Source: a phage
Direction: 5' to 3' (one strand)
Sequence record: PX502252.1
DNA length: 44,418 nucleotides
A program made the translations under genes and the position numbers. Positions 98 through 25,014 of the stretch are shown one piece after another. The notes below the pieces were generated by a model that saw only the letters and a program-made list of their open reading frames with translations, was not told where the DNA came from and ran no database searches. Every line of letters begins with the position of its first letter. Within the stretch, counting starts at the first letter, position 1.

Positions 98-113
98 GTC
101 TCACATGTGAGAC
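98..113. promoter_or_regulatory. 16-bp perfect palindrome GTCTCACATGTGAGAC (site 1 of 7), immediately upstream of a phage promoter
   Basis: Sequence is its own reverse complement; recurs at 281, 2649, 3757, 8492, 24999, 38880 (variants). Confidence 0.7.
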
Positions 114-115
114 TT

Positions 116-138
116 ATTTACCGGACACTATAGGAGAG
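116..138 (+). promoter_or_regulatory. SP6-type phage RNAP promoter (ATTTACCGGACACTATAGGAGAG)
   Basis: Match to SP6-family promoter core GACACTATAG with conserved upstream ATTTAC; position analogous to T7 phi1.1A. Confidence 0.7.
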
Positions 139-280
139 CCGTCGGAGACGGGAAAGAAAGGGAATATAAAGGATATAAAGGAAGTAATAGGTATTAAAGG
201 TTATATAGGATTACCTAGGAATACCTATTACCTTCTTCCTTCCTCTTATTACTAATTAGAGGAAAGGGCAGACTTAGGTT
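139..280. other. AT-rich promoter-flanked element, candidate primary origin of replication
   Basis: Lies between two phage promoters just after the RNAP gene and before a gene-1.1-like ORF (T7 primary-origin architecture); 5' hairpin CCGTCggaGACGG; inverted repeat GTAATAGGTATT / AATACCTATTAC around CCTAGG; shares TATAGGATTACCTAGG with 32218-32345. Confidence 0.45.
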
Positions 281-296
281 GTCTCACATGTGAGAC
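281..296. promoter_or_regulatory. 16-bp perfect palindrome GTCTCACATGTGAGAC (site 2)
   Basis: Exact copy of the palindrome, 5 bp upstream of promoter at 302. Confidence 0.7.
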
Positions 297-301
297 TTCG
301 T

Positions 302-324
302 ATTTACCGGACAGTATAGATAAG
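302..324 (+). promoter_or_regulatory. SP6-type phage promoter, divergent variant (ATTTACCGGACAGTATAGATAAG)
   Basis: Upstream half matches consensus; core CAGTATAGATA differs at 2 positions from CACTATAGAAG. Confidence 0.5.
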
Positions 325-349
325 ACTAACTCACTTTGGAGATTTAACT

Positions 350-478
350 ATGCGTAACTTTGAGAAGATGACCCGTAAAGCTAATCGTTTTGACATGGAA
401 GAAGGGCAGAAGAAAGGCAAGAAGCTGAACAAACCTGTCCGCGACCGTGCATCTAAACGCGCTGCGTGGGAGTTCTAA
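350..478 (+). CDS. Small basic protein (42 aa), resembles T7 gene 1.1 product
   Basis: ATG with GGAG upstream; MRNFEKMTRKANRFDMEEGQKKGKKLNKPVRDRASKRAAWEF; N-terminus and size match my recollection of T7 gp1.1; below ORF-track size cutoff. Confidence 0.6.
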   Translation: MRNFEKMTRKANRFDMEEGQKKGKKLNKPVRDRASKRAAWEF

Positions 479-481
479 GTT

Positions 482-2470
482 ATGGCTATTATTCAGAATG
501 TACCGTGTCCTGCCTGTCAAAAGAATGGACATGATGTTACCGGCAACCATCTCATGATCTTTGATGATGGTGCTGGCTATTGCAACCGTGGTCACTTCCA
601 CGATAACGGAAAGCCATACTACCATAAGCCCGAAGGTGGTATCGAGATAACCGAGTTGCCTATTACTGGCAATATCAAATATACACCTTCTCAGTTCAAA
701 GAGATGGAGAGGGAAGGGAAGATAAGCGACCCTAAGCTACGCGCCATCGCACTAGGTGGTATGCGTATGAAAGACCGTTGGGAGGTTATGAATGAGCAAG
801 AAAGGGCAGACCAAGAAGCAGAGTGGAAACTCGATGTTGAATGGTTCCTCACGCTTAAGCGTAAGAACCTTGTATCCCGACACATTCGCGGTGACATCGC
901 AGCACTATATGATGTGCGAGTGGGCCATGATGAAGATGGAAGAGTCAATCGTCACTATTATCCACGATTCGAGAAGGGTGAGCTAGTAGGCGCTAAGTGC
1001 CGTACATTACCTAAAGATTTTAAGTTTGGTCACTTAGGTAAACTCTTTGGTATGCAAGACCTTTTCGGGATGAATACTTTGTCTCACGTGTTAGACAAGG
1101 GAAGACGAAAGGATTGCTTACTTATCGTAGGCGGTGAACTTGATGCACTAGCAGCACAGCAGATGCTTCTTGATTCTGCCAAGGGTACTAAGTGGGAAGG
1201 CCAGCCTTATCATGTATGGTCTGTCAATAAGGGTGAGTCTTGCCTCGAAGAGATAGTGCAAAACCGTGAGCACATCGCCCAATTCAAGAAGATTATCTGG
1301 GGCTTCGATGGTGATGAGGTAGGGCAGAAGCAGAACCAGCAAGCGGCTCGCCTGTTCCCCGGCAAATCCTATATCCTTGAATACCCTTCTGGTTGCAAAG
1401 ATGCCAACAAGGCATTGATGGCTGGCAAGGCTAAAGAATTTGTGGATGCTTGGTTTAATGCAAAGTCATCTGATGAAGTCTTTGGTAGCCAGATTAAATC
1501 TATCGCATCTCAAAGAGATAAGCTCAAGGCTGCACGTCCAGAACAAGGGCTGTCATGGCCTTGGCCTAAGCTAAACAAGGTAACGCTGGGTATCCGTAAG
1601 AACCAGCTTATCATTATAGGTGCAGGCTCTGGTGTTGGTAAGACAGAGTTTCTCCGTGAAGTAGTTAAGCACCTCATTGAAGAACACGGTGAATCTGTAG
1701 GCATCATTTCTACAGAAGACCCGATGGTCAAGGTGTCCCGTGCTTTTATCGGCAAATGGATTGATAAGCGTATTGAGTTACCGCCGACCAACGACCCGAA
1801 AGAAGATGGATACCGTGAGGTATTCGACTATACAGAGGAAGAGGCTAATGCTGCCATTGATTATGTAGCTGATACAGGGAAGCTATTTGTGGCTGACCTA
1901 GAGGGTGATTATTCAATGGAGAAGGTAGAGCAAACTTGCCTAGAGTTTGAGGCTATGGGTATTTCTAATATCATCATTGATAACTTAACGGGGATTAAAT
2001 TAGATGAGCGTGCTTTTGGTGGGAAGGTTGGTGCACTTGATGAATGCGTCAAGCGGATTGGTACTATCAAAGACCGACACCCAGTTACTATATTCCTTGT
2101 ATCACACCTTACACGTCCTCCGGCAAACCGTACCCAACACGAAGAAGGTGGCGAGGTTATCCTTTCTGACTTCCGAGGCTCAGGAGCTATCGGATTCTGG
2201 GCATCTTACGCCTTGGGGATTGAGCGTAACACAAGAGCTGAAACGCTTGATGAAAGGACTACCACGTACATCTCATGTGTCAAAGATCGTGACCAAGGTA
2301 TCTACACAGGAACCAAAGTCATGCTTAAGGGTGACATTCAAACCGGACGTTTGAGAGAACCACAGGCTAGAACAAGGTCATTTGATACAGGTGAAGCAAG
2401 GCAACAAGAAGTACCGGATTTACCGGACACTATAGAAGAGACAACCTTTGATGATGAACAGGAGTTTTGA
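482..2470 (+). CDS. DNA primase/helicase (T7 gp4-like)
   Basis: N-terminal Cys4 zinc ribbon (CPACQ...CNRGH), helicase Walker A GAGSGVGKTEF, acidic C-terminus ending DDEQEF; 662 aa. Confidence 0.95.
   Translation: MAIIQNVPCPACQKNGHDVTGNHLMIFDDGAGYCNRGHFHDNGKPYYHKPEGGIEITELPITGNIKYTPSQFKEMEREGKISDPKLRAIALGGMRMKDRWEVMNEQERADQEAEWKLDVEWFLTLKRKNLVSRHIRGDIAALYDVRVGHDEDGRVNRHYYPRFEKGELVGAKCRTLPKDFKFGHLGKLFGMQDLFGMNTLSHVLDKGRRKDCLLIVGGELDALAAQQMLLDSAKGTKWEGQPYHVWSVNKGESCLEEIVQNREHIAQFKKIIWGFDGDEVGQKQNQQAARLFPGKSYILEYPSGCKDANKALMAGKAKEFVDAWFNAKSSDEVFGSQIKSIASQRDKLKAARPEQGLSWPWPKLNKVTLGIRKNQLIIIGAGSGVGKTEFLREVVKHLIEEHGESVGIISTEDPMVKVSRAFIGKWIDKRIELPPTNDPKEDGYREVFDYTEEEANAAIDYVADTGKLFVADLEGDYSMEKVEQTCLEFEAMGISNIIIDNLTGIKLDERAFGGKVGALDECVKRIGTIKDRHPVTIFLVSHLTRPPANRTQHEEGGEVILSDFRGSGAIGFWASYALGIERNTRAETLDERTTTYISCVKDRDQGIYTGTKVMLKGDIQTGRLREPQARTRSFDTGEARQQEVPDLPDTIEETTFDDEQEF
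2418..2440 (+). promoter_or_regulatory. SP6-type phage promoter embedded in 3' end of primase/helicase gene (ATTTACCGGACACTATAGAAGAG)
   Basis: Full consensus match; in-frame encodes LPDTIEE. Confidence 0.65.
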
Positions 2471-2631
2471 TGGAAATTATTAAACCAGTATTGAGTATCG
2501 GTATTGACATCCTATTCATGCTTATGATTGCGGACTATGCTGCACGATACGGATTCAAGAAAGCTGTGAAACTTATAGTTGCATCTGGTTTTATTATGTC
2601 AATGTTCTTTATTGTAACACGCCTTATCTAG
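2470..2631 (+). CDS. Small hydrophobic membrane protein (53 aa)
   Basis: ATG overlaps helicase TGA stop (ATGA coupling); MEIIKPVLSIGIDILFMLMIADYAARYGFKKAVKLIVASGFIMSMFFIVTRLI; two hydrophobic segments; below ORF-track cutoff. Confidence 0.45.
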   Translation: MEIIKPVLSIGIDILFMLMIADYAARYGFKKAVKLIVASGFIMSMFFIVTRLI

Positions 2632-2648
2632 TGTATTTATCAGGGCTT

Positions 2649-2664
2649 GTCTCACATGTGAGAC
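2649..2664. promoter_or_regulatory. 16-bp perfect palindrome GTCTCACATGTGAGAC (site 3)
   Basis: Exact copy; intergenic. Confidence 0.7.
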
Positions 2665-2703
2665 AGGCTCTTATTAAGTACATTAAATAACTGGAGGTTG
2701 ACT

Positions 2704-3318
2704 ATGTATAAATTAGTATTGAATGTAGGTGACTCTGTACGCAATATCAAGAAAGGCTCAAGTCGCTACCTTTGCCGTGGTATCGTAACCTTTGTAGGTG
2801 AGAATTTGTACTATGTAGAATATAGTAATGGTGCTAAACAGTATTACCATAAGAAGACAGCACATAACTTTCTTGAGAAGATTGTCGAATCACTCAATGA
2901 CAAAGTATGTAATGCATATATCAGTATTGCTAATAGCGTTACTGGTGGTACACGTACCACACTTAAGAAAGAGCGCCGCAATGTAATCACTGGTAAGACT
3001 CAAAGTGAAATGGTTAAGCAGTGCGGCACTGCATTAGGTGTTACACAGTTTAATACTCGTGCATTGGGTAAATCCACAGGGCAAGCTATGGTAAAGATTG
3101 GCGAAGCCATGATGCATCCAAATGTGCCTGTACGAATCATGGATGTTGACCATGCAATCACAGAACACGGTACGCAACGACGTGTAATTAATAAGCATTT
3201 TGCCGACACTATAGAAGGTATTATTCGTAAGCAAGGGTTGAAGGGTCTTCACATCTTAAATGGTGAAGAATTACTGTACCTGCCTATCGTTACTGAAGAA
3301 ACATACGTGAATATCTAA
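2704..3318 (+). CDS. Hypothetical protein (204 aa)
   Basis: ATG 6 nt after CTGGAGG; ORF-track frame 2698-3318; no motif recognised. Confidence 0.7.
   Translation: MYKLVLNVGDSVRNIKKGSSRYLCRGIVTFVGENLYYVEYSNGAKQYYHKKTAHNFLEKIVESLNDKVCNAYISIANSVTGGTRTTLKKERRNVITGKTQSEMVKQCGTALGVTQFNTRALGKSTGQAMVKIGEAMMHPNVPVRIMDVDHAITEHGTQRRVINKHFADTIEGIIRKQGLKGLHILNGEELLYLPIVTEETYVNI
3197..3219 (+). promoter_or_regulatory. Possible intragenic phage promoter (CATTTTGCCGACACTATAGAAGG)
   Basis: Core GACACTATAGAAGG exact, upstream region partially matching; in-frame encodes ADTIEG. Confidence 0.4.
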
Positions 3319-3328
3319 GGAGTTAATC

Positions 3329-3547
3329 ATGACTAAGGTATTAATTTATATGCGTGGACCTCATAAATGCTATGCAGTTGTAGCACCAAATGGTGTTAAG
3401 CCCTATAGTACTTCAAAAGGATTGGCATTAATAGGCGCTAGTAGTAGTGCAAGTTTCCAAATGGAACTTTTGGGTCGTTGGACTGAATGGCAATTCCGTG
3501 AGCGTTTTAAAGTCATTGGCAGCTTCATGGTGAAACATGCAGAATAA
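3329..3547 (+). CDS. Hypothetical protein (72 aa)
   Basis: ORF with AAGGAG 7 nt upstream of ATG. Confidence 0.55.
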   Translation: MTKVLIYMRGPHKCYAVVAPNGVKPYSTSKGLALIGASSSASFQMELLGRWTEWQFRERFKVIGSFMVKHAE

Positions 3548-3746
3548 ACATAGTCTTAAAATGCTCGATGGTCATGAAGACCTGCAAGCCAAGATTACTA
3601 ACCAAGCCTTCCTGTTCGCACAGTTAACTATGGCTGAGGCCAAGAAGAATAGTCTCACTCGTGAACAGGTTATCAAGGAGGCCACTTGGGAACCACACCA
3701 AGGTAAATACATGGGCCAGAAATTAACTGTAACACGCAGTCGATAA
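3537..3746 (+). CDS. Hypothetical protein (69 aa)
   Basis: ORF overlapping previous stop by 11 nt; weak SD. Confidence 0.45.
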   Translation: MQNKHSLKMLDGHEDLQAKITNQAFLFAQLTMAEAKKNSLTREQVIKEATWEPHQGKYMGQKLTVTRSR

Positions 3747-3755
3747 GTCAAGGGT

Positions 3756-3780
3756 TGTCTCACGCGTGAGACAGCCTTTT
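3756..3780 (+). terminator. Palindrome variant TGTCTCACGCGTGAGACA followed by GCCTTTT (site 4); hairpin plus T-run
   Basis: 18-bp perfect palindrome with centre CGCG instead of ATGT, then T-tract. Confidence 0.5.
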
Positions 3781-3897
3781 ATCATATTGATTGGAGGTGC
3801 ATTATGCCACGTGATTATGATTCTGATTGGGACTACTATGACTCAATGAATCCAAAACCCGAACGTTCAAATGATTACTACGAAACAGAGGCAATGT

Positions 3898-6408
3898 ATG
3901 AAAACTATTGATTGGAAGAAGGAAGCAGAAGGGCGAATCCTAGTGATGGATGCGGAAGCTAAAGGTCTGCTTGATGCTATCCGCTATGGTCATCGTGAAG
4001 ATGTACACATCATTTGCTGCATGGACTTGCTCACCACTGAGGAGTTCCTCTTCTTCGACCCATATGAGATGCGTGACCCTGAAGCAAGGGAACACCTGAA
4101 AGAGTGGGAAGGACATCAAGATGGAACCTTAGTTGACGGTGTTAACTTCCTGAAGCACTGTGAAGCTATTGTGTCGCAGAACTTCCTAGGATATGACGGT
4201 CTTCTCTTTGAGAAAGCATTCCCTGATATCTGGAAAGGCTTTAATTATACCGAGAAGCGCGGCAAGGGCAGACTCCGTGCCGACCTGTGCCCTATCCGTG
4301 TTGTCGACACGCTGGTGATGAGTCGCCTGTTAAACCCCGATAGACGCCTTCCTCCGCAAGCATATGCCAAAGGTATGGGTAACGTCGCCCCTCACTCAAT
4401 TGAGGCGCACGGCATCCGTATAGGTCGCTATAAACCGGAGAACGAGGACTGGTCTAAACTAACTGACCACATGGTTCACCGTGTACGTGAGGACGTGGCG
4501 ATTGGTCGTGACTTGTTCCTCTGGCTCTTTAACGGGGAATGGATGGAGCACAAACGCCGTGGCGTGAACAAACGTACTGGCCTAGGGATTGAGACAGCCT
4601 TCCACATGGAGTCCATTGTGGCGCTGGAGATGAGCCGTCAGGCAGAGCGTGGATTCCGTCTGGATATTGACAAAGCACTAGCGCGATGCGAAGAACTGGA
4701 CGCTAAGATTGATGAGACAGTCGCAGCGTTCCGTCCGCACATGCCTATGCGTATCAAGTCTAAACCTTTTAAACCGGAAGAAAAGAATGAAGTATGCCAA
4801 CGCGCAAATGAGTATGGAGCTAGCAACAATATACCTACTGTCCTGGACCCCTCACACTTTCTTCATGCCGAGAGACGAGGAGATCGCAAGACAGTATGGA
4901 GTGTCACTACTAAGTCTGGTGATTGGTCGGCTAGTGTCAAGAAAGACTTTCCTCACCTTAGAGGAAACCGTAATGACACGCCAAGCATCAAGTGGATTGG
5001 CGCTTACTCGCCTGTTACTTTCGAAGAGATTCCCTTGGGTAACAGGGATGCAGTTAAGCAAGTGCTCTATGATTATGGATGGAAAGGTGTTGAATTTAAC
5101 GATACCGAGCAAGCGCATCTCGATGAGCACGGAGTGTTACCCAAACCTTGGAGTGGTAAGATAAATGAAAAGTCCCTTACTTTATGGCAAGAAAGAGCCG
5201 CACGTGAAGGTAAAACAGTCCCTGATTGGTGCTTGGGTATCGCTGCATGGTACATACTCGTATCCCGTCGTGGTCAGATACTCAACCGGGGTGACGTTGA
5301 AGCCTTCAACGAGAAGGGAACGTGGCCCTCGCAGGCTGGTGTACGAAAGTGTCGCGGCCTTGTACCTGTAGCATTCAACAAGGAGTTAGGAATCAATGCG
5401 CAGCAATACTACGAGAGGTACGGATGCTGGCCTACGTCAGACAAGGATGACGGAGAGTGGCGTGTGCCAGGCAATGCTGTTACTATTGGCACTAATACGT
5501 TCCGTATGCGTCATCGTAACATTGTTAACATTCCTTCCCGTGGGTTGTATCCTTTACGTGATTTATTCATAGCTAGCAAGGGCAAAATGATACTTGGGTG
5601 TGATGGAGCAGGTCTTGAGCTACGCATCTTAGCCCATTTTATGGGTGATCCTGAGTATATTGATATAGTCTTGAATGGTGATATTCACTCGCACAACCAA
5701 GCAAAGGCTGGATTGCCCTTACGTGACACTGCGAAAACATTTATCTACGCTTTTCTCTACGGATCTGGCATACCAAATCTTGCCGCTGTATGTGGCATGA
5801 CTGAAGCACAGATGAAAGAATGTGTTGCTCGCTTTGAAGTAGAGTTACCTCATTTAGCTAAACTTAAGGAAGGGGTGGAATCCGCTGCTTCAACATTTGG
5901 ATATATGCACGCTGTAGATGGACGCTGGGGACGTGTACGCGTTAGTAATGGTGAGATTAAGATTCACACTTGTCTTAACGTACTGCTACAGATGACTGGC
6001 TCCCTCACTATGAAGTACTCAAAAGTGAAGGCTCTCGCTACTATGCGAAAAGAAGGTGTTGCCCTTGATGAGAATGGAAACCCTGCTATGCTTGTAGATT
6101 ATCATGATGAATGGCAGATGGAAGTACCTGAAGATGAAGTCTTAGAGATTCGCTACTCTATTCCTTCTTCCGAATGGAAAGAGGAAGAGAAACGTCAATA
6201 TCGTGATAGCGAAGGGCGCATGTGGTCTGCACCCAAGATTGTGGAAGGCAATCCTAAAGATGACGAAGAGGTAACAGTACGTCGCAGGTATCATCGTGCT
6301 GGTGAAATCTTAGCTGAATCTATTACGTGGGCTGGAGAATATCTCAAGCTACGTATCCGAATGGATGGCGAATATATGCTTGGATATTCATGGGCTGAAA
6401 CACACTGA
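3898..6408 (+). CDS. DNA polymerase, family A (T7 gp5-like)
   Basis: Exo I motif ILVMDAEAKGL; motif A GCDGAGLELRILAHF; motif B RDTAKTFIYAFLYGSG; motif C YHDEWQ. Start placed at ATG 3898 (AGAGG 7 nt upstream); in-frame ATG 3871 lacks SD. Confidence 0.93.
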   Translation: MKTIDWKKEAEGRILVMDAEAKGLLDAIRYGHREDVHIICCMDLLTTEEFLFFDPYEMRDPEAREHLKEWEGHQDGTLVDGVNFLKHCEAIVSQNFLGYDGLLFEKAFPDIWKGFNYTEKRGKGRLRADLCPIRVVDTLVMSRLLNPDRRLPPQAYAKGMGNVAPHSIEAHGIRIGRYKPENEDWSKLTDHMVHRVREDVAIGRDLFLWLFNGEWMEHKRRGVNKRTGLGIETAFHMESIVALEMSRQAERGFRLDIDKALARCEELDAKIDETVAAFRPHMPMRIKSKPFKPEEKNEVCQRANEYGASNNIPTVLDPSHFLHAERRGDRKTVWSVTTKSGDWSASVKKDFPHLRGNRNDTPSIKWIGAYSPVTFEEIPLGNRDAVKQVLYDYGWKGVEFNDTEQAHLDEHGVLPKPWSGKINEKSLTLWQERAAREGKTVPDWCLGIAAWYILVSRRGQILNRGDVEAFNEKGTWPSQAGVRKCRGLVPVAFNKELGINAQQYYERYGCWPTSDKDDGEWRVPGNAVTIGTNTFRMRHRNIVNIPSRGLYPLRDLFIASKGKMILGCDGAGLELRILAHFMGDPEYIDIVLNGDIHSHNQAKAGLPLRDTAKTFIYAFLYGSGIPNLAAVCGMTEAQMKECVARFEVELPHLAKLKEGVESAASTFGYMHAVDGRWGRVRVSNGEIKIHTCLNVLLQMTGSLTMKYSKVKALATMRKEGVALDENGNPAMLVDYHDEWQMEVPEDEVLEIRYSIPSSEWKEEEKRQYRDSEGRMWSAPKIVEGNPKDDEEVTVRRRYHRAGEILAESITWAGEYLKLRIRMDGEYMLGYSWAETH

Positions 6409-6417
6409 GTTATACTA

Positions 6418-6445
6418 AAGGTCACTTACGAGTGGCCTTTATGAA
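6418..6445 (+). terminator. Hairpin downstream of DNA polymerase (AAGGTCACT-TACG-AGTGGCCTT) with weak T-tract
   Basis: 9-bp stem with tetraloop; 3' arm AGTGGCCT resembles RNAP-downstream terminator. Confidence 0.35.
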
Positions 6446-6476
6446 TAACTTACTCCCACCTATTTTGTATAACAGG

Positions 6477-6499
6477 ATTTACTGGACACTATAGAAGGA
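6477..6499 (+). promoter_or_regulatory. SP6-type phage promoter (ATTTACTGGACACTATAGAAGGA)
   Basis: Consensus match, intergenic. Confidence 0.75.
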
Positions 6500-6562
6500 A
6501 AGCCTAGGTAATCTAGTTTATAAGGTAGTATAGGTAATTAAGTAAATATAGGAGGTATAAAT

Positions 6563-6940: not shown

Positions 6941-6946
6941 GGAGCT

Positions 6947-7246
6947 ATGATGGAAGAAGTAATTCAAGCTAAACATGTAGGTATCATCTTTCGTGATTTA
7001 GAGCAGCGTAAAGTTGCAGGTCACACTCGTCTGGCTAAAGAAGAAGACACAGCAATCACTACTGTTGAACAAGCAGATGCCTATCGTGGGCCAGAGTTTA
7101 CTCAAGGTGAAACTTGTCACCAATTGAGCCTGTCGCTTTGTGATACTATTGCTAGTGTGAATGTTCAAGAAGTTGAAGACGGTGAGATTGTTAGTTACGT
7201 CTACCCTCTAGACACTATTGCACGCATTAAAGTAATTCATAAATAA
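6947..7246 (+). CDS. Hypothetical protein (99 aa)
   Basis: TAAGGAG upstream; start 6947 or 6950. Confidence 0.6.
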   Translation: MMEEVIQAKHVGIIFRDLEQRKVAGHTRLAKEEDTAITTVEQADAYRGPEFTQGETCHQLSLSLCDTIASVNVQEVEDGEIVSYVYPLDTIARIKVIHK

Positions 7247-8271: not shown

Positions 8272-8490
8272 ATGAAAGTACAAATTGTAACTCTGCATTG
8301 CAAGAAAGGCATCACCACGCTTGGCGGTGGCACTTTCCACTCCTTCTCCGAAGGAGATACATACTCTGACCTGCACTACATCTGGCGCGATGGGCAGCAC
8401 GTGGTGAACTATAGTGACCCGGCTACGGGGAAACGCCACGGCGTATCGCTTCCGGCGCATGACATTGCTCAGGTGAACACAGTTTTATAA
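8272..8490 (+). CDS. Hypothetical protein (72 aa)
   Basis: Strong SD AAGGAGGG 4 nt upstream of ATG. Confidence 0.6.
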   Translation: MKVQIVTLHCKKGITTLGGGTFHSFSEGDTYSDLHYIWRDGQHVVNYSDPATGKRHGVSLPAHDIAQVNTVL

Positions 8491-8491: not shown

Positions 8492-8507
8492 GTCTCACGT
8501 GTGAGAC
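8492..8507. promoter_or_regulatory. Palindrome variant GTCTCACGTGTGAGAC (site 5), 15 bp upstream of phage promoter
   Basis: Same arms GTCTCAC/GTGAGAC with centre GT. Confidence 0.65.
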
Positions 8508-8522
8508 AAATCGGTGTCCGGT

Positions 8523-8545
8523 ATTTACTGGACACTATAGAAGAG
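8523..8545 (+). promoter_or_regulatory. SP6-type phage promoter (ATTTACTGGACACTATAGAAGAG)
   Basis: Full consensus match. Confidence 0.8.
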
Positions 8546-18156: not shown

Positions 18157-18167
18157 TAGGAGGATTC

Positions 18168-18908
18168 ATGCCTTTAATTCAAAATACAAGTGATGTTGGG
18201 CGTATCATGGCTGAGGCTTCCTTCAATATCATTGATAGTAAGCTGGAGGCAGTCAACCTGTGTATGCGAGCTATTGGTCGTGAGGGTGTGGATTCCCTTG
18301 ACTCTGGCGACTTAGATGCTGAAGATGCTAACAAGATTATTGATATTGTCTCACAACGCTTCCAATACAACAAGGGTGGTGGTTGGTGGTTTAACAGAGA
18401 ACCTAATTGGCTACTTAAACCTGACACAAATGGTGAAGTGAACATGCCTAACAATTGTCTTGCTGTTCTCCAATGTTATGCTCTAGGTGAACGTAAAGTA
18501 CCTATGACTATACGCGCAGGCAAGTTGTACTCTGTTTGGAATCACACTTTCGATATGTCAAAGTATGTGAATCAGGATGGGCGTATTAGGTTGACTCTGG
18601 TAACATTACTGCCTTTCGAGCATCTACCTGCAAGTGTAATGCAGGCCATTGCCTATCAGGCTGCCGTAGAGTTTATTGTGTCTAAAGATGCAGATAAGAC
18701 TAAACTACAAGCACACCAGCAGATTGCAGCACAATTGATGATTGATGTTCAGTCAGAGCAGTCTTCTCAGAAGAGACTTAATATGCTTGTACATAACCCC
18801 ACTCAGCGCAACTTTGGCATCATGGCAGGTGGATCTCAGAATGTACCAGCGTTCTCCTATTCACCTTATGACACTTACCCTGTAAGGCCGTGGGAGGTTG
18901 ATAGATAA
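18168..18908 (+). CDS. Tail tubular protein A, T7 gp11-like
   Basis: 246 aa; synteny after capsid. Confidence 0.85.
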   Translation: MPLIQNTSDVGRIMAEASFNIIDSKLEAVNLCMRAIGREGVDSLDSGDLDAEDANKIIDIVSQRFQYNKGGGWWFNREPNWLLKPDTNGEVNMPNNCLAVLQCYALGERKVPMTIRAGKLYSVWNHTFDMSKYVNQDGRIRLTLVTLLPFEHLPASVMQAIAYQAAVEFIVSKDADKTKLQAHQQIAAQLMIDVQSEQSSQKRLNMLVHNPTQRNFGIMAGGSQNVPAFSYSPYDTYPVRPWEVDR

Positions 18909-21313
18909 TGGAAGTACAAGGTTCTTTAGGTCGTCAGATTCAAGGTATTAGCCAACAACCAGCAGCAGTACGGTTAGACGGTCAATGTACTGATATGGTT
19001 AATATGGTTCCAGATGTAGTCAACGGTACACAATCCCGCATGGGTAGCACTCATATTGCAAAGCTAATGGAAGCAGGCAGTGACAATATGGCAACACATC
19101 ACTATAGAAGAGGGGATGGGGTAGAAGAGTATTTCTTTGTCATGAAGAAAGGTAGCGTGCCAGAAATATTTGACAAAGAAGGGCGTAAATGCACTGTGAT
19201 CTCTCAGGATGCACCTATGGCTTATCTTGCTGAGGTTGTGAACCCGAGAGAAGACGTGCAGTTCATGACTATTGCTGATGTAACATTTATGCTTAACAGG
19301 CGTAAAGTAGTGAAAGCTCGTAGTGATAAGTCTCCAAGTGTGGGAAACAAGGCTATTGTGTTTTCTGCCTACGGGCAGTATGGCACTTCGTACACTATCT
19401 CTATTAACGGCGAGCAAGCGGCGACCTTCAAAACTCCAGATGGAAGTGACCCTAGTCATGTAGAACAGATTCGCACTGAGTACCTAGCCACTAAGCTATA
19501 TGAGAGTTTACAGACATGGAGTAAAGCGTCACAGTACACCTTGCAAAGAGAAGGCACTAGTATCTACATTGAAACTAAAGATGGTAGTGATTTCACTATT
19601 ACTACCACAGATGGGGCCAAGGGTAAGGACTTGGTTGCCATAAAGAACCGAGTGTCATCTACAGACTTACTTCCCTCAAGAGCACCAGAAGGGTACAAGG
19701 TACAGGTGTGGCCTACAGGGAGTAAACCAGAATCTAGGTATTGGCTAGAGGCTGTACCTAAAGAAGGAGGTAACTTAGTTGCTTGGCAAGAAACTATTGC
19801 AGCAGATGTGTTACTTGGATTTGATAAAGATACTATGCCCTATATTATAGAGCGTACAGGTATTGTAGGAGGTGTGGCGCAGTTTAAGATAAGGCACGGT
19901 GATTGGGAAGATCGTAAGGTAGGAGATGACCTGACTAACCCTATGCCTTCTTTTATTGATGAAGATGTACCACAGGCGATTGGCGGTATGTTCATGGTGC
20001 AGAACCGTCTTTGTGTTACAGCAGGCGAAGCCGTCATAGCAACTAGGACTTCTCACTTCTTTGACTTCTTTCGTTTCTCCGCAGTATCTGCTGTGGCAAC
20101 AGACCCTTTCGATATTTTCTCAGATGCAAGTGAGGTATACCAGCTTAAACATGCAGTAACCCTAGATGGGGCAACAGTATTATTCGCAGATACATCTCAG
20201 TTCATACTTCCGGGGGATAAAGTATTAGAGAAATCTAATGTCATACTCAAGCCTGCTACAACTTTCGAAGTTGACAACAGGGTGCCACCTGTGGCAACTG
20301 GTGAGTCCGTGATGTTTGCTACAAGTGAGGGTGCTTACTCTGGTGTGCGTGAGTTTTATACCGATTCTTACAGCGACACTAAGAAGGCGCAGGCTGTTAC
20401 TAGTCATGTTAACAAGTTGATAGAAGGTAATATCACTCATATGGTAGCGAGCACTAATATCAACAGATTACTTGTAGTAACAGACAAAGACCCTAATATT
20501 GTCTATTGCTACGACTGGTTGTGGCAAGGGACAGATCGTGTACAGTCTGCATGGCATAAGTGGGTGTGGCCTAAAGATACTTTGATTCGCTCTATGGTCT
20601 ATTCCTCAGAGATGTTATATCTCATTGTAGAACGAGGTAATACTGGTTTGTATCTAGAGGTTATGGATATGGGTGATGCTCTTACTTATGGTTTAGTTGA
20701 CAGAATTAGACTGGATAGGCAAGCAGAGTTGATCTTCACCTATGATGCTAATACAGACCAGTGGGTTTCTAATGAGTTGCCTTGGAAGCCTACTGACCCA
20801 GCCTTACTTGAGTGTGTGATAATTCAAGGGTGGCCTGCTTATATTGGTGGTTCTTTTCATTTTGAATATGATGAAGCCAGTAATAAGCTAATTACAACTT
20901 TTGATTTATCAGAAGAAGGCACTAATGCTATAGCTGTCGTAGGGCAGTTGTATCAGCAGGAGTTTGAGCCAACACAGGTCGTTATTCGAGATAACCAAGA
21001 TAGAGTGTCCTACATAGATGTGCCAGTGGTAGGCCTGGTTCACCTTAACTTGGATAAATACCCTGACTTTGAAGTTCATATCAAGAACTTAAAGAGTGGC
21101 AAATTAAGAAAGGCTTTGGCATCTAACAGGAAAGGCGGGGCACTTAATAATGTTGTTGGTTATGTCAAGCCAGAAGAGGGGTCATTCAAATTTCCACTAA
21201 GATCCCTTAGTACAGATACTGTTTATCGTATCATTGTTAACTCCCCTCATACATTCCAACTCAGGGATATTGAGTGGGAAGGTTCGTATAACCCAACTAA
21301 GAGGAGGGTATAA
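18908..21313 (+). CDS. Tail tubular protein B, T7 gp12-like
   Basis: 801 aa; synteny. Confidence 0.88.
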   Translation: MEVQGSLGRQIQGISQQPAAVRLDGQCTDMVNMVPDVVNGTQSRMGSTHIAKLMEAGSDNMATHHYRRGDGVEEYFFVMKKGSVPEIFDKEGRKCTVISQDAPMAYLAEVVNPREDVQFMTIADVTFMLNRRKVVKARSDKSPSVGNKAIVFSAYGQYGTSYTISINGEQAATFKTPDGSDPSHVEQIRTEYLATKLYESLQTWSKASQYTLQREGTSIYIETKDGSDFTITTTDGAKGKDLVAIKNRVSSTDLLPSRAPEGYKVQVWPTGSKPESRYWLEAVPKEGGNLVAWQETIAADVLLGFDKDTMPYIIERTGIVGGVAQFKIRHGDWEDRKVGDDLTNPMPSFIDEDVPQAIGGMFMVQNRLCVTAGEAVIATRTSHFFDFFRFSAVSAVATDPFDIFSDASEVYQLKHAVTLDGATVLFADTSQFILPGDKVLEKSNVILKPATTFEVDNRVPPVATGESVMFATSEGAYSGVREFYTDSYSDTKKAQAVTSHVNKLIEGNITHMVASTNINRLLVVTDKDPNIVYCYDWLWQGTDRVQSAWHKWVWPKDTLIRSMVYSSEMLYLIVERGNTGLYLEVMDMGDALTYGLVDRIRLDRQAELIFTYDANTDQWVSNELPWKPTDPALLECVIIQGWPAYIGGSFHFEYDEASNKLITTFDLSEEGTNAIAVVGQLYQQEFEPTQVVIRDNQDRVSYIDVPVVGLVHLNLDKYPDFEVHIKNLKSGKLRKALASNRKGGALNNVVGYVKPEEGSFKFPLRSLSTDTVYRIIVNSPHTFQLRDIEWEGSYNPTKRRV

Positions 21314-22038
21314 TGGCAGTAATGGCAACAGTAGGATCAAGCCTAGCCAGTATGTTCTCCAGTAGTGCAGGTGCTGCGGCTGCTAGTAGTGCTGCTGGTA
21401 GTGCCGCCGCTGGGAGTGGGGGTGTGCTTGGCTCTGTCGGAAGTTTCTTAGGTGGAAGCTCTGCTGGCTTTTCTAATGCAGGTTTGTTGTCTGCTGGACT
21501 ACAAGGCTTAAACTTACTAGGCGGCCTATTCGGTGGACGAGATACCGCTAAGGCTATGCAGAAAGCACAAGAAGAAGAGTGGAGACAAAGGCTAGAAGCC
21601 ACACGTGAAGCCTATTCTTCTGTGGCAAATGCAGAACGGTCTGCTGCAAAGCAATATCATTCTGACTTCCTTAATAATCAAATTTCACTGATGCAGCAAC
21701 GAGCGCAAGTTGCAGTAATGGCAGGTGCTACTGGAACAGGTGGTAGCTCCATCACATCCATGCTCAATGATTTGACGGCAGAAGGTGGTCGTAATCAGTC
21801 AACCATTATAGATAATTATGAGAATCAGCAAATCAACTTTGCCAACCAGTTGAAGTCTATTCAACGCAGTGGACAGATGCAGATGCGAACGTTTGACAAA
21901 CCTTCCGCTTTGGGTACTTTGGTGAAAGGTATACCAAGCCTTGCATCTTCCTATGTCACCGGAAGTAAAGCAGGTATGGCGCTTGGCAAGGCTATCACTG
22001 AGTCTCGTACTTATTCATCAGGAACTAGAGGAGTTTAA
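21313..22038 (+). CDS. Internal virion protein (Gly/Ala/Ser-rich N-terminus)
   Basis: 241 aa; low-complexity AAAASSAAGSAAAGSGG region; position of T7 gp13/14. Confidence 0.75.
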   Translation: MAVMATVGSSLASMFSSSAGAAAASSAAGSAAAGSGGVLGSVGSFLGGSSAGFSNAGLLSAGLQGLNLLGGLFGGRDTAKAMQKAQEEEWRQRLEATREAYSSVANAERSAAKQYHSDFLNNQISLMQQRAQVAVMAGATGTGGSSITSMLNDLTAEGGRNQSTIIDNYENQQINFANQLKSIQRSGQMQMRTFDKPSALGTLVKGIPSLASSYVTGSKAGMALGKAITESRTYSSGTRGV

Positions 22039-24981
22039 ATGGCAATTGAACGTCAAGCTGTACAAGGTTTAGAAAGAGTACAGTCAAGGGGCGCGCCAAC
22101 ACCTATGTCTTTCACACCACGACAAGTGAGTATCTCAGGGGGCGCTGATGCCTCCGGTAGTAGATTTTTGGAAGACTTAGTAAACGCCGCAAGTAGTGTG
22201 GCTGATGTCACTACTGCTATCCTTAATCAGCAAGTAGAAGACGATAAGGTTCGCCAGATGGATAGGGCTTTGTCTGGCATGATGCCTTCTGAGGATGCCA
22301 CGGTAGGCGGTGCTCGTGCTCATATGCTGGTTAGTTTACAAAATGATGTAATCGCACAGACAACTGCGCTACAAGCAGAAGCACAGCGATTTCAAGGTAG
22401 TGACGAGGATTGGGAAAACTATGTAGTTCAATCTCGTAATGAGGTACAAAATAGATTATGGCAAAGTTATCCAGAGCTTCGTGGTGACAAAGATTCTATG
22501 AGGCTTGTCACTAACGCGTTCATGGAGCAGCAACCTAGAATTACTGCAACTAGAGCAGAGGCTAAACTTCGTCAAGAAGAAGAAGCACGAATGCAATCTA
22601 TGCAGTCTCGTATTATCATGGCTACAAGGGACGTAGCGCCAGATGCCACTGGTGCAGCTCTTATCCAGCTACAAAAAGAAGCACTGGCGATGGGTCTTAG
22701 TAAACCTGAGTTTGATCAAATGGTTGCTAAGATTGCATCTGAAAGAGCGGCAGTAGGAGATGATAGTCTTATTCAGGGAACCAAGGCATTGGTGGATGAT
22801 AAGGGTGTCTCTTTGTATGACCGTGTTGGTGCTTTGCAAACTGGAGAAATTCAAGCTAACAGAACTTGGGCTGCTCAGAATCAGGTTGCCCTCTTCGAGA
22901 AGAAAGATGCAGCTATAAAGGCATTCGATGCAGGGCAACTTACTCGCGAAGAGTTACTTCAGGTAATGCAGAATCACAATGAATTGACTGGTGGCACTGC
23001 TTGGTCTGATAGCGAGATCAAGGCTATCTTCGATAGGCAAGCTAAGGTTAATGCAGAGAAAGCAAAGCTCGAAGATCTTATTGCACGAGGTGAATCTGGG
23101 TCGCCTTTAGGCTTACAGGACATTAGTAAGGATGACAGAAAGACATATGCTGAAGCCTTAGTTAGTACCTACACTAAGCTGGCAGAAGATGAAATTGCTC
23201 GTACTGGTGCAACGGGAGAACAGGCTGAAGCTATTCGCGGTAGGTATGAGCAGATGCGTTATCTTAAATTGGGTCAACAGCTTATTGAAGACCCGATCAT
23301 TAAGGAAAGGTATTCGTCGCTTATGCAGCTATCCTCTGCCAACCTCAAGGATATGAATGTTGAACCTGAAGCACTGCAAACTATCATGCGAGCACGTGAT
23401 TCTATTCCAGAGGATGCACGTCGTGCTGTTATGGGAGACAAAGAATATGCCTTTGTTGAGAACTATGACTTAGCAACTCGCATGGGATATAACACAGGTC
23501 AAGCTATTGAGTTTGCACAGAATGCCTCTCGCGGCGAGAAATTACAAGGTTCTGTGCTCAAAGAACTTAATGATGATGTAGATGGAGTAGTTAGTGACAT
23601 TGCAGGAGGTAGCTGGCTCACTTTTGGTGATAACATGAGTGAAATGGGACGTGACATTATGATGGAGGAGGCAAGTACAATTGCTAGAGCAATGAAGGTT
23701 GCAGGCCATAATAATGACACTATTAAGCGTCACCTTAAATCCTATCTTACAAGCCAGTATACACAATTGTCAGAAGGTTTCTTTACTCAAGGTGTTCTTG
23801 TAAAAGGAGACATTCGTACATTAGGGGACACTATAGGAGTAAACCAAGGAGACGTCCCAATGGCTCTCCGTCAGTACCTAGATAATAACAAACAAGCTCT
23901 ACTAGATGCATCAGGTGGGTTAGAGGAAGGCGACCTGTATTTTGATGTAGATGCGCAGCGTGGCCTCTTTACTATACGTGCAGGCTCTGGTCGTGTGCCT
24001 GTTACACAGGCAATGCCTTTGTCTGAAATCAAAGGTCAATCCTTGCTTAAGCAACGGTATGATGCAGAGGTTAAAGCACGTGATGAAGGGCGTAAGAATT
24101 TTGAAGCACAACAAATGCGAATGTGGGGTGCAGGTGGATATCAAGCACAGCCACCTGCAAAGACTACAGCCAAAACTGTAGGCTCACGTGGTATTGCTGA
24201 CTTCTTAATGTCTCCCGCCTTTGCATCAGGTGAAAGATTGCCAGCAAACTTTGAGTTTGGCTATAAGAGGAATAATATGGACTTTTATAACTATGTGGCT
24301 AAGACTGAGAATAGCGCCAATGTAGGGTTCGACCGAGTAGCGGGAGTTTATACACCATACAAAGATGCACATGGTCAGTCTGTAGGTTATGGTCACTTCC
24401 TTACTGCTGAAGAGAAGAAGAACGGATACATTATGATTGGTACAGAGAAAGTGCCATTCACTCCGGGGCAATCTCAATTAACACCAGAACGTGCCATGCG
24501 CCTCCTACAGCAAGACTTGAAGAGCCATGTGCCAAGCACTTCAGGGTGGGCTGTTCCCTTCGAAGAGATGCACCCAGGTGTTCAGCGTGGCCTTATGGAT
24601 TTGTCCTATAACTTAGGTAAAGGAGGCATCCAGAATGCTCCTAAGGCATATGCTGCGTTTAAGGCTGGCAAGTTTACTGATGGCTTTATCGAGATGTTAT
24701 CTACTGCATCTACTGAAGGTAAACGTAGCACTGGGTTGTTGGTTCGTAGGGCAGAAGCATATAATCTTGCCCAGAGCGGAGGTGCTGTTCCTAAGATTAG
24801 TGAAGTAGAGACACGAGCAGATGGGTCCATGTATGTGAAGTTTGCAGGTCAGATGTCAGAGGCTTTCGTAAGTAAATCAATCTATAATCAGATTGGTAAG
24901 GATGGGTGGATGCAAGTGTACCCTCCAAAACAAGGTGCGCTTGCACCTAACACTCAGGTTGGTAGAATCAAACTAAGCTAG
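22039..24981 (+). CDS. Internal virion protein with C-terminal T4-lysozyme-like (GH24) muramidase domain
   Basis: 980 aa; segment E...YTPYKDAHGQSVGYGHFLT matches the E/D/T catalytic region pattern of T4 lysozyme (YKDTEGYYTIGIGHLLT). Confidence 0.8.
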   Translation: MAIERQAVQGLERVQSRGAPTPMSFTPRQVSISGGADASGSRFLEDLVNAASSVADVTTAILNQQVEDDKVRQMDRALSGMMPSEDATVGGARAHMLVSLQNDVIAQTTALQAEAQRFQGSDEDWENYVVQSRNEVQNRLWQSYPELRGDKDSMRLVTNAFMEQQPRITATRAEAKLRQEEEARMQSMQSRIIMATRDVAPDATGAALIQLQKEALAMGLSKPEFDQMVAKIASERAAVGDDSLIQGTKALVDDKGVSLYDRVGALQTGEIQANRTWAAQNQVALFEKKDAAIKAFDAGQLTREELLQVMQNHNELTGGTAWSDSEIKAIFDRQAKVNAEKAKLEDLIARGESGSPLGLQDISKDDRKTYAEALVSTYTKLAEDEIARTGATGEQAEAIRGRYEQMRYLKLGQQLIEDPIIKERYSSLMQLSSANLKDMNVEPEALQTIMRARDSIPEDARRAVMGDKEYAFVENYDLATRMGYNTGQAIEFAQNASRGEKLQGSVLKELNDDVDGVVSDIAGGSWLTFGDNMSEMGRDIMMEEASTIARAMKVAGHNNDTIKRHLKSYLTSQYTQLSEGFFTQGVLVKGDIRTLGDTIGVNQGDVPMALRQYLDNNKQALLDASGGLEEGDLYFDVDAQRGLFTIRAGSGRVPVTQAMPLSEIKGQSLLKQRYDAEVKARDEGRKNFEAQQMRMWGAGGYQAQPPAKTTAKTVGSRGIADFLMSPAFASGERLPANFEFGYKRNNMDFYNYVAKTENSANVGFDRVAGVYTPYKDAHGQSVGYGHFLTAEEKKNGYIMIGTEKVPFTPGQSQLTPERAMRLLQQDLKSHVPSTSGWAVPFEEMHPGVQRGLMDLSYNLGKGGIQNAPKAYAAFKAGKFTDGFIEMLSTASTEGKRSTGLLVRRAEAYNLAQSGGAVPKISEVETRADGSMYVKFAGQMSEAFVSKSIYNQIGKDGWMQVYPPKQGALAPNTQVGRIKLS

Positions 24982-24998
24982 TGTTATACTCAAGGTTT

Positions 24999-25014
24999 GT
25001 CTCACATGTGAGAC
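24999..25014. promoter_or_regulatory. 16-bp perfect palindrome GTCTCACATGTGAGAC (site 6), between internal virion protein genes
   Basis: Exact copy, flanked by T/A extending palindrome to 18 bp. Confidence 0.7.

What the first reader, a model, noticed from the sequence alone, without database searches (positions are those of the whole stretch)
98..25014. A 16-bp perfect palindrome GTCTCACATGTGAGAC recurs at seven intergenic sites
Exact or near-exact copies lie at 98-113, 281-296, 2649-2664, 3756-3773 (centre CGCG), 8492-8507 (centre GT), 24999-25014 and 38880-38895 (one mismatch). Three of them sit 2-15 bp upstream of a phage promoter. A 7-bp stem with a 2-nt loop is too short for a classic RNase III site or a Tphi-type terminator, and strict conservation of a dyad-symmetric sequence is more typical of an operator for a dimeric DNA-binding protein, or of a selfish mini-element. 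I do not know this motif from T7 or SP6 literature.
Basis: seen in the sequence. Interest (0 to 1): 0.8.

Follow-up and report, generated by a model that had tools for sequence, protein, structure and literature searches.

The report
Dispersed hairpin module in phage transcripts
The repeated 16-base palindrome is a small hairpin-forming module that K1E/SP6-like phages place along their transcribed strand: in three places it caps a T7-type RNase III processing hairpin, elsewhere it stands alone just upstream of phage promoters, and all copies in a genome change together for a reason not yet known.

Summary
The window holds eight copies of GTCTCACATGTGAGAC with at most 2 mismatches, against 0.19 expected by chance. 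The window is a circularly permuted Vectrevirus (K1E/K1-5-like) genome.

At 2649, 3757 and 24999 the palindrome is only the tip of a 57-nt composite hairpin: lower stem, asymmetric internal loop, 13-bp upper stem. A covariance model built only from T7 RNase III sites finds all three. Covariation is strong, and G·U pairs outnumber A·C pairs 68 to 5, which points to RNA of the + strand.

The other five copies are bare 6-7-bp hairpins. Three sit 2, 5 and 15 bp upstream of phage promoters.

The motif occupies the same roughly eight positions in six of the seven Molineuxvirinae genera checked; the seventh, only partly held, keeps fewer. Its variable pairs change in a compensatory way.

A dsDNA operator is disfavoured but not excluded. 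Copies in one genome share arm type and loop length, and coding copies follow the same type at the cost of N→H changes. This is unexplained and is the novel part. The function of the bare copies is inferred, not shown.

The parts
98..113 (+). Core copy b, a bare hairpin. It lies about 45 nt after the early terminator hairpin and 2 bp before the phage promoter at 116.
   Evidence: MFE is -6.9 kcal/mol.
281..296 (+). Core copy c, a bare hairpin 5 bp before the variant promoter at 302. Its position matches that of T7 R1.1 between phi1.1A and phi1.1B.
1081..1096 (+). Core copy d, inside the primase/helicase ORF, encoding S-H-V-L-D. The 3' arm is GTTAGAC, because completing the palindrome would turn TTA into the stop codon TGA. 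In this lineage the stem is extended at its base.
2629..2685 (+). Composite RNase III-type hairpin e, with the core at 2649-2664. It has an 11-bp lower stem, an internal loop and a 13-bp upper stem. The cut is predicted, by analogy with T7, after 2674.
   Evidence: 23 bits; -29.5 kcal/mol, z -8.7.
3737..3793 (+). Composite RNase III-type hairpin f, with the core at 3757-3772, just upstream of the DNA polymerase gene. The cut is predicted after 3782.
   Evidence: 25.3 bits; -26.6 kcal/mol, z -5.6.
8492..8507 (+). Core copy g. It starts 1 nt after the stop codon of the 72-aa ORF 8272-8490 and is followed by the spacer AAATC and a second hairpin.
8513..8536 (+). Second hairpin of site g. An upstream complement (GGTGTCCGG) pairs with the specificity region of the promoter that starts at 8523.
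   Evidence: The complement changes with each genus's promoter sequence.
24979..25035 (+). Composite RNase III-type hairpin h, with the core at 24999-25014, between the two large internal-virion-protein genes. The flanks ACTCAAGG...CCTTTATGAATGAC match those of T7 R sites. The cut is predicted after 25024.
   Evidence: (40.4 bits, E 8e-8).
38880..38895 (+). Core copy a, near the genome's left end and about 70 bp upstream of the first sigma-70-like promoter. Its stem carries a mismatch and is not significantly stable.
   Evidence: (-2.7 kcal/mol, z 0.1).
116..138 (+). Phage promoter downstream of copy b.
   Evidence: 0 mismatches to the consensus.
302..324 (+). Variant promoter-like site downstream of copy c (CAGTATAGAT).
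   Evidence: 3 mismatches.
8523..8545 (+). Phage promoter downstream of copy g.
   Evidence: 1 mismatch.
6403..6460 (+). T7-type RNase III-like hairpin without the palindrome (upper stem GGUCAC/GUGGCC), just upstream of the promoter at 6477. It shows that the core is not required for this class.
   Evidence: (49.1 bits, E 4e-10).

Best explanation
The palindrome encodes a small hairpin that acts in + strand transcripts, not as a duplex-DNA site.

Shown:
- At 2649, 3757 and 24999 it is the top 6-7 bp of a 13-bp upper stem. That stem sits on an asymmetric internal loop and a 9-11-bp lower stem.
- This is the architecture of T7 RNase III processing signals, with the same flanking consensus (ACUCAAGG...CCUUUAUGA).

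Inferred:
- Host RNase III cuts once on the 3' side of the internal loop. This leaves the long upper stem as a 3' hairpin that protects the upstream mRNA.
- The five bare copies are the same module used alone. They lie at the ends of transcription units, directly before phage promoters, and once inside the helicase ORF.
- They probably act as small processing, stability or insulating hairpins for read-through transcripts. In T7 the equivalent places (R1.1 before phi1.1B, R4.7 before phi4.7) are held by RNase III sites.

Open: the copies in one genome are kept alike in arm sequence and loop length. This means either that something reads the sequence, or that copies are homogenised by gene conversion or template switching. 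Which of these applies is not resolved.
For: Identity of the three composite sites:
- Covariance model R1 was built only from seven T7 RNase III sites. It hits the window only on the + strand down to E 0.38, at 24977-25042 (40.4 bits), 3735-3800 (25.3) and 2627-2692 (23.0).
- The same model recovers T7 R6.5, which was not in its training set.
- It also finds site h in K1E, K1-5, SP6, HY, Proteus and phD2B.

Structure:
- On 24 composite sites from 11 phages, 94.7% of cells pair, against 76% in shuffles (0 of 500 reached the observed value).
- 14 of 25 pairs show compensatory change.
- There are 68 G·U cells against 5 A·C cells.
- For e and f the + strand folds at -29.5 and -26.6 kcal/mol, and the - strand at -15.9 and -14.1.

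Core:
- The variable pairs are C-G/A-U, U·G/A-U or U-A/C-G.
- They are always pairable at sites b, c, e, g and h, and at 15 of 16 f contexts, in every distinct sequence context seen.
- The centre varies in sequence (AT, GT, GC, AC) and in length.

Helicase copy: synonymous positions 4 and 13 are T-A, T·G or C-G and never C·A. In Vectrevirus the stem is extended at its base, where the top is broken.

Outgroup: an Edwardsiella phage lacks the motif but has its own recurring 16-nt palindrome at analogous places, including a site-g-like arrangement.

Published rules: at least 11 bp are needed between the cut and the loop, extra base pairs above are tolerated, and an internal loop gives a single cut that leaves a protective 3' hairpin (PMC1540722).
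Against: No cleavage or transcript-end data exist for any site.

Five of the eight copies have only 6-7 bp, far below the minimum for RNase III, so their function is inferred from position alone.

Copy a lies upstream of the first promoters and is mismatched in this phage. Copies a and d are conserved despite a C·U mismatch.

The N→H changes break pairing within the hairpin. They occur in the helicase of Vectrevirus and in the RNAP of Pantoea phage Nifs112. Stem stability alone therefore cannot explain the conservation.

Stem sequence is conserved across genera (GUC..AC/GU..GAC) much more than a generic stabiliser hairpin would need.

The T7 RNase III site coordinates used to build R1 came from my memory of Dunn and Studier 1983. 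They are checked only by their internal consistency and by the recovery of R6.5.
Confidence: 0.6

Rival explanations
1. The 16-mer is an operator on duplex DNA for a dimeric phage-encoded (or host) protein that controls the adjacent middle-gene promoters. The three copies inside RNase III hairpins would then be secondary or coincidental.
For: - It is a 16-bp dyad with strongly conserved outer (GTC/GAC) and inner (AC/GT) positions in all genera.
- Four of the eight site classes lie directly upstream of a promoter. In the Proteus phage this includes the left-end copy.
- Mismatched copies a and d are conserved.
- Coding copies track the genome's half-site type.
- The bare promoter-proximal sites were never seen with the 'foreign' allele, whereas RNase III-type sites were.
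- Two small ORFs of unknown function, 3537-3746 and 8272-8490, co-occur with the motif in all nine genomes and end right at sites f and g.
Against: - Half-site spacing is 3 nt at five sites and 2 nt at one site within one genome.
- The gap from core to promoter is 2, 5 and 15 bp in the window, and 2 to about 13 bp at orthologous site b.
- In SP6 the asymmetric arms keep one orientation relative to transcription at 6 of 7 asymmetric sites, giving U·G on the + strand.
- Three copies continue an RNA helix through wobble-containing linkers.
- Pfam, PHROG and PDB searches and the fold models found no DNA-binding domain.
- No protein column co-varies clearly with the allele.
Confidence: 0.17
2. The copies are a self-propagating or passively homogenised palindromic repeat. 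Ectopic gene conversion together with quasi-palindrome template switching would keep them alike. Most would have little function of their own, and some would have been co-opted into RNase III hairpins.
For: - Arm allele and centre length are uniform within a genome.
- Both alleles segregate at the same site on near-identical flanks, a four-base coordinated swap (L047/L050 against L023; K1-5 site f).
- The window's site h has SP6-like flanks but the resident Vectrevirus core.
- Coding copies are converted only in the arm where no stop codon results.
Against: - The positions are orthologous and retained across seven genera whose replication proteins (RNA polymerase, helicase, DNA polymerase) are down to about 59-67% identical. 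This does not fit neutral or parasitic DNA in a compact 44-kb lytic genome.
- No presence/absence polymorphism or target-site duplication was seen.
- An outgroup phage keeps a different palindrome family at the same kinds of places, which argues for a selected role.
Confidence: 0.12
3. The hairpins are pause or termination signals for the phage or host RNA polymerase. They would end upstream transcripts before the next promoter.
For: - Copies b and c are followed by U-rich sequence supplied by the promoter's ATTTA (GAGAC-UUAUUUA).
- All copies lie at the ends of cistrons or just before promoters.
Against: - The bare hairpins are weak, at -6.9 to -9.3 kcal/mol.
- Copy g is followed by AAAUCGG, and SP6/HY copy b by ACGAUGCGG, with no U run.
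- The consensus terminator scan was run only on 38000-44418. There it picked the post-RNAP hairpin (44358-44381, the overlap duplicate of the one near base 31) but not copy a.
- Published annotation of a close relative places terminators elsewhere.
- Copy d lies inside an essential ORF.
Confidence: 0.06

Closest known systems
T7 RNase III processing signals (R0.3, R0.5, R1, R1.1, R1.3, R4.7, R18.5, R6.5)
   Same: - Sites e, f and h share the lower stem, asymmetric internal loop and upper stem plan.
- They share the flanking consensus ACUCAAGG...CCUUUAUGA.
- They lie on the transcribed strand, in intergenic positions.
- They sit close to phage promoters.
- A model built from the T7 sites alone detects them.
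   Different: - The upper stem is 13-14 bp instead of about 10.
- Its top 7 bp are a near-invariant palindrome shared by all such sites in a genome.
- That palindrome also occurs alone at five other places.
- The window also has T7-like sites without it (6403-6460 and three in the early region).
- Cleavage has not been tested.
Dispersed, mutually similar hairpin palindromes of the T7-like vibriophage VIB04 that trigger DdmABC (Lamassu) (PMC11707656)
   Same: That paper reports several highly similar palindromes dispersed over an Autographiviridae genome. Some resemble the T7 RNase III site and others do not.
   Different: The phage group and the sequence are different. That work studied recognition of the DNA hairpins by a host defence, not their role for the phage. 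No positional or evolutionary analysis was reported in the passages I read.
T7 R13, R6.5 and R3.8, RNase III sites that enclose a promoter
   Same: At site g an upstream complement pairs with the promoter sequence. This resembles T7, where CTCCCTGTGGTG pairs with CACTATAGGGAG at R13.
   Different: Here the paired part is the specificity region (-12 to -4) rather than -7 to +5. The hairpin is only 10 bp, and a separate core hairpin precedes it.
REP/BIME-type intergenic palindromes of enterobacteria (from my own knowledge)
   Same: They are short, dispersed, sequence-conserved palindromes in transcribed intergenic regions. They can stabilise upstream mRNA as 3' hairpins, and they evolve as a family.
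   Different: REPs are chromosomal, far more numerous, polymorphic in presence, and linked to RAYT transposases. The phage module sits at fixed orthologous sites, and no transposase is present.

Membership tests
T7-type RNase III processing signal | Irregular hairpin of about 55-60 nt: lower stem, asymmetric internal loop, and an upper stem of at least about 10-11 bp between the cut and the loop. | tested here: met
   Met for 2629-2685, 3737-3793 and 24979-25035. The upper stem is 13 bp; the published minimum is 11 bp (PMC1540722). Not met for 98, 281, 1081, 8492 and 38880, which have 6-8 bp only.
T7-type RNase III processing signal | Sequence and structure similarity to experimentally defined T7 sites. 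| tested here: met
   CM R1, built from 7 T7 sites, scores 40.4, 25.3 and 23.0 bits at h, f and e. Every hit down to E 0.38 is on the + strand, and the model recovers the untrained T7 R6.5. The five bare copies do not score.
T7-type RNase III processing signal | The structure is conserved by compensatory change on the transcribed strand. | tested here: met
   94.7% of cells pair, 14 of 25 pairs show compensatory change, and no shuffle reached the observed value (0 of 500). G·U cells outnumber A·C cells 68 to 5.
T7-type RNase III processing signal | Site-specific cleavage by host RNase III. | not testable with these tools
   This needs an in vitro cleavage assay or end mapping in rnc+ and rnc- hosts.
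Operator for a dimeric dsDNA-binding protein | Fixed spacing between half-sites. | tested here: not met
   In the Proteus phage the centre is 3 nt at five sites and 2 nt at the left-end site.
Operator for a dimeric dsDNA-binding protein | Defined geometry relative to the regulated promoter. | tested here: not met
   The gaps are 2, 5 and 15 bp in the window. At orthologous site b the gap ranges from 2 to about 13 bp across genera.
Operator for a dimeric dsDNA-binding protein | A cognate DNA-binding protein encoded by the phage or host. | tested here: inconclusive
   Ten small ORFs gave no Pfam or PHROG function. Two ORFs that co-occur with the motif gave low-confidence models (pLDDT 69 and 63). 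One has weak Sm/SH3-like hits with E of at least 0.1.
Intrinsic / class I terminator | A stable G+C-rich hairpin directly followed by a U run. | tested here: not met
   The bare hairpins fold at -6.9 to -9.3 kcal/mol. There is no U run after 8492, or after SP6/HY site b.
Mobile miniature palindromic element (REP/MITE-like) | Presence/absence polymorphism at insertion sites among relatives. | tested here: not met
   The same roughly eight positions are occupied in six of seven genera; Nifs112, held only in part, keeps about four. Only the allele varies, not occupancy.

The most novel reading that the evidence does not exclude
The core is a recognition element read by its sequence, not merely a stable stem. 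One possibility is that an unidentified phage factor binds the hairpin, as RNA or as single-stranded DNA. The candidates by phyletic pattern and position are the 69-aa and 72-aa ORFs that end at sites f and g. The other possibility is that the self-complementary copies pair with each other to form 16-bp duplexes. Either would couple transcript processing to promoter insulation. Either would also force all copies, including those inside the helicase and RNA polymerase genes, to switch between two discrete types (GTCCAAC and GTCTCAC) together.
Probability: 0.2. Interest if true: 0.75.

Novelty: new variant of a known kind. Interest (0 to 1): 0.5.

Why it matters
RNase III processing is a textbook feature of T7, but I found no description of it for the SP6/K1E group in the literature I could search. 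This analysis places at least seven T7-type sites in the window. Three of them carry a subfamily-wide hairpin cap.

The same cap, used alone in front of promoters and inside essential genes, changes in concert within each genome. That marks a regulatory layer in a phage group used for in vitro transcription (SP6, K1E RNA polymerases) and for therapy (K1- and K5-specific phages).

There are practical consequences:
- Perfect palindromes of this kind are known triggers of Lamassu/DdmABC defence in a T7-like vibriophage (PMC11707656).
- They matter when designing synthetic phage genomes and expression cassettes.

If a sequence-reading factor exists, it would be a new type of control in Autographiviridae.

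Tried and rejected
- **Rfam.** A scan of the whole window at E up to 1 gave no family.
- **Literature.** No held paper contains any variant of the 16-mer. None links RNase III with the SP6-group taxon names. Two SP6-like genome papers mention only terminators. The primary SP6 paper (Dobbins 2004, PMC374404) is not held, so prior description there cannot be excluded.
- **Database annotation.** The K1E, K1-5, SP6, KAW1A4500 and T7 records do not mark these sites.
- **Class II (ATCTGTT-type) signals.** None is associated with the copies, except ATCTATT 12 nt before copy a.
- **Primase-site idea (GTC at the stem base).** Dropped, because it makes no consistent prediction.
- **Similarity of the core to the promoter specificity region.** It is partial in some genera and absent in others, so dropped.
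- **Search for a protein that co-varies with the allele.** Vectrevirus-specific residues shared with Nifs112 make up 0-24% in every family and none stands out.
- **The 69-aa and 72-aa ORFs.** Pfam, PHROG, PDB sequence search, AlphaFold and Foldseek gave nothing significant.
- **Longer pairing around the bare copies.** Only 0-2 extra pairs were found, and they are not conserved.

Full report
**What the window is.** Megablast places it in Vectrevirus (K1E/K1-5-like; Autographiviridae, Molineuxvirinae) at about 91-92% identity. It is circularly permuted. The RNA polymerase gene is at 41723-44350. The first 91 bases repeat the last 91, which is an assembly overlap.

**The observation.** GTCTCACATGTGAGAC occurs eight times with at most 2 mismatches, against 0.19 expected.
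- An eighth, 1081-1096, lies inside the primase/helicase ORF.
- Phage promoter matches start at 116, 302 and 8523, which is 2, 5 and 15 bp after three copies.

**Positional conservation.** I label the sites as follows: a is the left end; b and c lie after the RNA polymerase gene; d is inside the helicase gene; e is after the helicase gene; f is before the DNA polymerase gene; g is after the 72-aa ORF; h is between two internal-virion-protein genes.
- The same places carry the motif in K1E, K1-5, KAW1A4500, SP6, Klebsiella phage HY, Proteus BigMira, Lelliottia phD2B and Pectobacterium POP72. It is partly present in Pantoea Nifs112.
- Only two stem pairs and the centre vary. The arms are GTCTCAC/GTGAGAC in Vectrevirus and Nifs112, GTCTAAC/GTTGGAC in SP6, and GTCCAAC/GTTGGAC elsewhere.
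- T7 has no copy.

**What three copies really are.** Folding the orthologous intergenic regions shows that at e, f and h the 16-mer is only the tip of a 57-nt hairpin.
- The hairpin has a 9-11-bp lower stem, an asymmetric internal loop and a 13-bp upper stem.
- The flanks read ACTCAAGG...CCTTTATGAATGAC.
- I extracted T7 sequence at the RNase III site coordinates I remember from Dunn and Studier 1983. Those sites show the same plan and the same flanks.
- As a test independent of the window, I aligned seven T7 sites, built a covariance model and searched the window with filters off.
- All matches down to E 0.38 are on the + strand. They include h (40.4 bits, E 8e-8), f (25.3 bits) and e (23.0 bits).
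- Four hairpins without the palindrome also score: 6403-6460 (49.1 bits), 40703-40759, 39917-39976 and 41653-41711.
- The model recovers T7 R6.5, which was not used to build it. It also finds site h in six relatives.

**Support for the structure.**
- On 24 composite sites from 11 phages, 94.7% of cells pair against 76% in shuffles. Fourteen of 25 pairs carry compensatory changes.
- G·U cells outnumber A·C cells 68 to 5.
- For e and f the + strand folds about twice as stably as the - strand.
- Published work on E. coli RNase III states three rules (PMC1540722). At least 11 bp are needed between the cut and the loop. Extra pairs above the distal box are tolerated. An internal loop restricts cutting to one strand, leaving a protective 3' hairpin.
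- I therefore file e, f and h as T7-type RNase III signals with an extended cap. Cleavage itself is untested.

**The five bare copies.** They have 6-7 bp only and do not score with the model (-6.9 to -9.3 kcal/mol; copy a is not significant).
- Their positions are regular. Copy b follows the post-RNAP terminator hairpin and precedes a promoter in every genus checked.
- Copy c sits between two promoter-like sites, where T7 has R1.1.
- Copy g starts 1-5 nt after a stop codon in the six phages where the upstream gene is annotated (window, SP6, HY, Proteus, phD2B and K1E). A short spacer follows (AAATC in Vectrevirus, SP6 and HY), then a second hairpin. In that hairpin an upstream complement pairs with the promoter's specificity region. 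The complement changes with each genus's promoter.
- The window's palindrome-free RNase III-like site at 6403-6460 likewise sits just before promoter 6477.
- The bare hairpins therefore occupy places that RNase III sites occupy elsewhere. This is the basis for inferring a processing, stability or insulating role. It is an inference.

**RNA or DNA.**

For an RNA hairpin (or a + strand single-stranded one):
- The variable pairs are always pairable at b, c, e, g and h, and at 15 of 16 f contexts, in every distinct context seen.
- In SP6, six sites carry U·G on the + strand and only site a carries the reverse.
- The centre varies in sequence, and in the Proteus phage also in length within one genome.
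- The distance from core to promoter is not fixed.
- In the helicase copy, synonymous positions 4 and 13 are T-A, T·G or C-G, never C·A. In Vectrevirus the broken top is offset by a 4-bp extension at the base, created by ATG→TTG and ACC→ACT. The valine codon within it is GTG in all five lineages, whereas only 3 of 24 conserved valine columns in the gene keep one codon.

For something that reads sequence:
- GTC..AC/GT..GAC is invariant across genera.
- Copies a and d are conserved despite a mismatch.
- The coding copies follow the genome's allele. The helicase has S-H-V-L-D in Vectrevirus where other genera have S-N-V-L-D. The RNA polymerase of Nifs112 has S-H-V-L-D where phD2B and POP72 have S-N-V-L-D. 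In both cases the 3' arm stays GTTAGAC, because GTGAGAC would create TGA.

**Concerted behaviour.**
- Arm allele and centre length are uniform within a genome.
- By protein identity, Nifs112 is the most distant motif-bearing phage, yet it shares the Vectrevirus allele.
- IMG/VR contigs show both alleles at the same site on near-identical flanks.
- The window's site h has SP6-like flanks, and the neighbouring gene is 81% identical to SP6 against 43% to K1E, but the core is the resident one.
- Foreign alleles were seen only at the RNase III-type sites f and h, never at b, c or g.
- An outgroup Edwardsiella phage lacks the motif. It has its own family, GTATAGTATACTATAC, at four analogous places, one with the same hairpin, spacer, hairpin, promoter layout as site g.
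- Taken together, the job is conserved, the sequence is lineage-specific, and the copies are kept alike. I cannot tell whether a trans-acting factor, copy-to-copy RNA pairing or gene conversion does this.

**Search for a factor.**
- Only two small ORFs are present in all nine motif-bearing genomes and undetected in T7 and in the held Edwardsiella region: 3537-3746 (69 aa) and 8272-8490 (72 aa). They end at sites f and g.
- They have no Pfam, PHROG or PDB relatives.
- Their models are of low confidence (pLDDT 69 and 63).
- The 72-aa model is a small beta-barrel whose best fold matches are Sm/SH3-like, all with E of at least 0.1. This is a lead only.

**Prior knowledge.**
- No held paper contains the motif or links RNase III with this phage group.
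- The original SP6 paper is not held, so I cannot rule out that RNase III-like sites or this repeat were noted there.
- The nearest published parallel I could read is the set of mutually similar, dispersed palindromes in a T7-like vibriophage, some of them RNase III-like, that trigger DdmABC (PMC11707656).

**Verdict.** The operator reading is disfavoured but not excluded. The composite sites are a new variant of a known kind. The concerted evolution of the module, including its coding copies, is the part worth experimental follow-up.

Noticed in passing
window 1-91 and 44328-44418: The first 91 bases are identical to the last 91, which is a circularisation overlap of the assembly. The true unit is 44,327 bp. 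The post-RNAP terminator hairpin therefore appears twice (about 31-54 and 44358-44381).
   Followed up: yes
window 6403-6460, 39917-39976, 40703-40759, 41653-41711: Four T7-type RNase III-like hairpins without the palindrome score 49, 23, 27 and 19 bits with the T7-only model. The last lies just before the RNA polymerase gene, as T7 R1 does. The first lies just before promoter 6477.
   Followed up: partly
window 8513-8536; also upstream of promoter 34546: An upstream complement pairs with the promoter's own specificity region (GGTGTCCGG with CTGGACACT). It changes with the promoter sequence in SP6, HY, Proteus, phD2B and POP72. A similar complement (CAGTGTC) precedes promoter 34546.
   Followed up: partly
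window 1081-1096; L131 (Nifs112) 5471; L007 4901; L130 4801: Coding copies of the motif encode S-N/H-V-L-D in the helicase, and in some genera in the RNA polymerase. N is replaced by H exactly in the genomes whose intergenic copies are GTCTCAC.
   Followed up: partly
L132 (Edwardsiella phage WAG25P1) 5990, 6290, 9240, 14909: This phage lacks the motif but has its own recurring 16-nt palindrome, GTATAGTATACTATAC, at analogous places. One of them has the same hairpin, spacer, hairpin, promoter layout as site g.
   Followed up: partly
window 22039-24981 and site h: This gene is 81% identical to SP6 but only 43% to K1E and K1-5, so the region is mosaic. Site h beside it has SP6-like flanks but the Vectrevirus core, with a T·T mismatch in the linker.
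   Followed up: partly
window 66-97: A block of about 25 nt, ACCTGTAACATTTCATTAACA, between the early terminator and copy b is conserved in Vectrevirus, SP6 and HY. It has no evident structure.
   Followed up: no
window 133-280: A purine- and AT-rich leader with short repeats (GGAAAG, ATAAAGGA) and a CCTTCCTCT/AGAGGAAAGG hairpin lies between the two post-RNAP promoters. T7 has its primary replication origin at the corresponding place (from my own knowledge).
   Followed up: no
window 38525-38531 and 38862-38868: ATCTGTT and ATCTATT lie on the + strand near the left end. Only 4 of the 14 ATCTRTT matches in the window are on the transcribed strand. 38525 may be a concatemer-junction-type class II pause signal.
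   Followed up: no
window 3537-3746 and 8272-8490: These two small ORFs of unknown function are the only ones present in all nine motif-bearing genomes and undetected in T7 and in the held Edwardsiella region. Each ends at a motif site (f and g).
   Followed up: partly
window 302-324; L004 about 6287; L005 about 13724: The 'promoter' after copy c departs from the consensus at the initiation region (CAGTATAGAT here, CACTATTGAAC in SP6 and HY). The departure is conserved as such.
   Followed up: no
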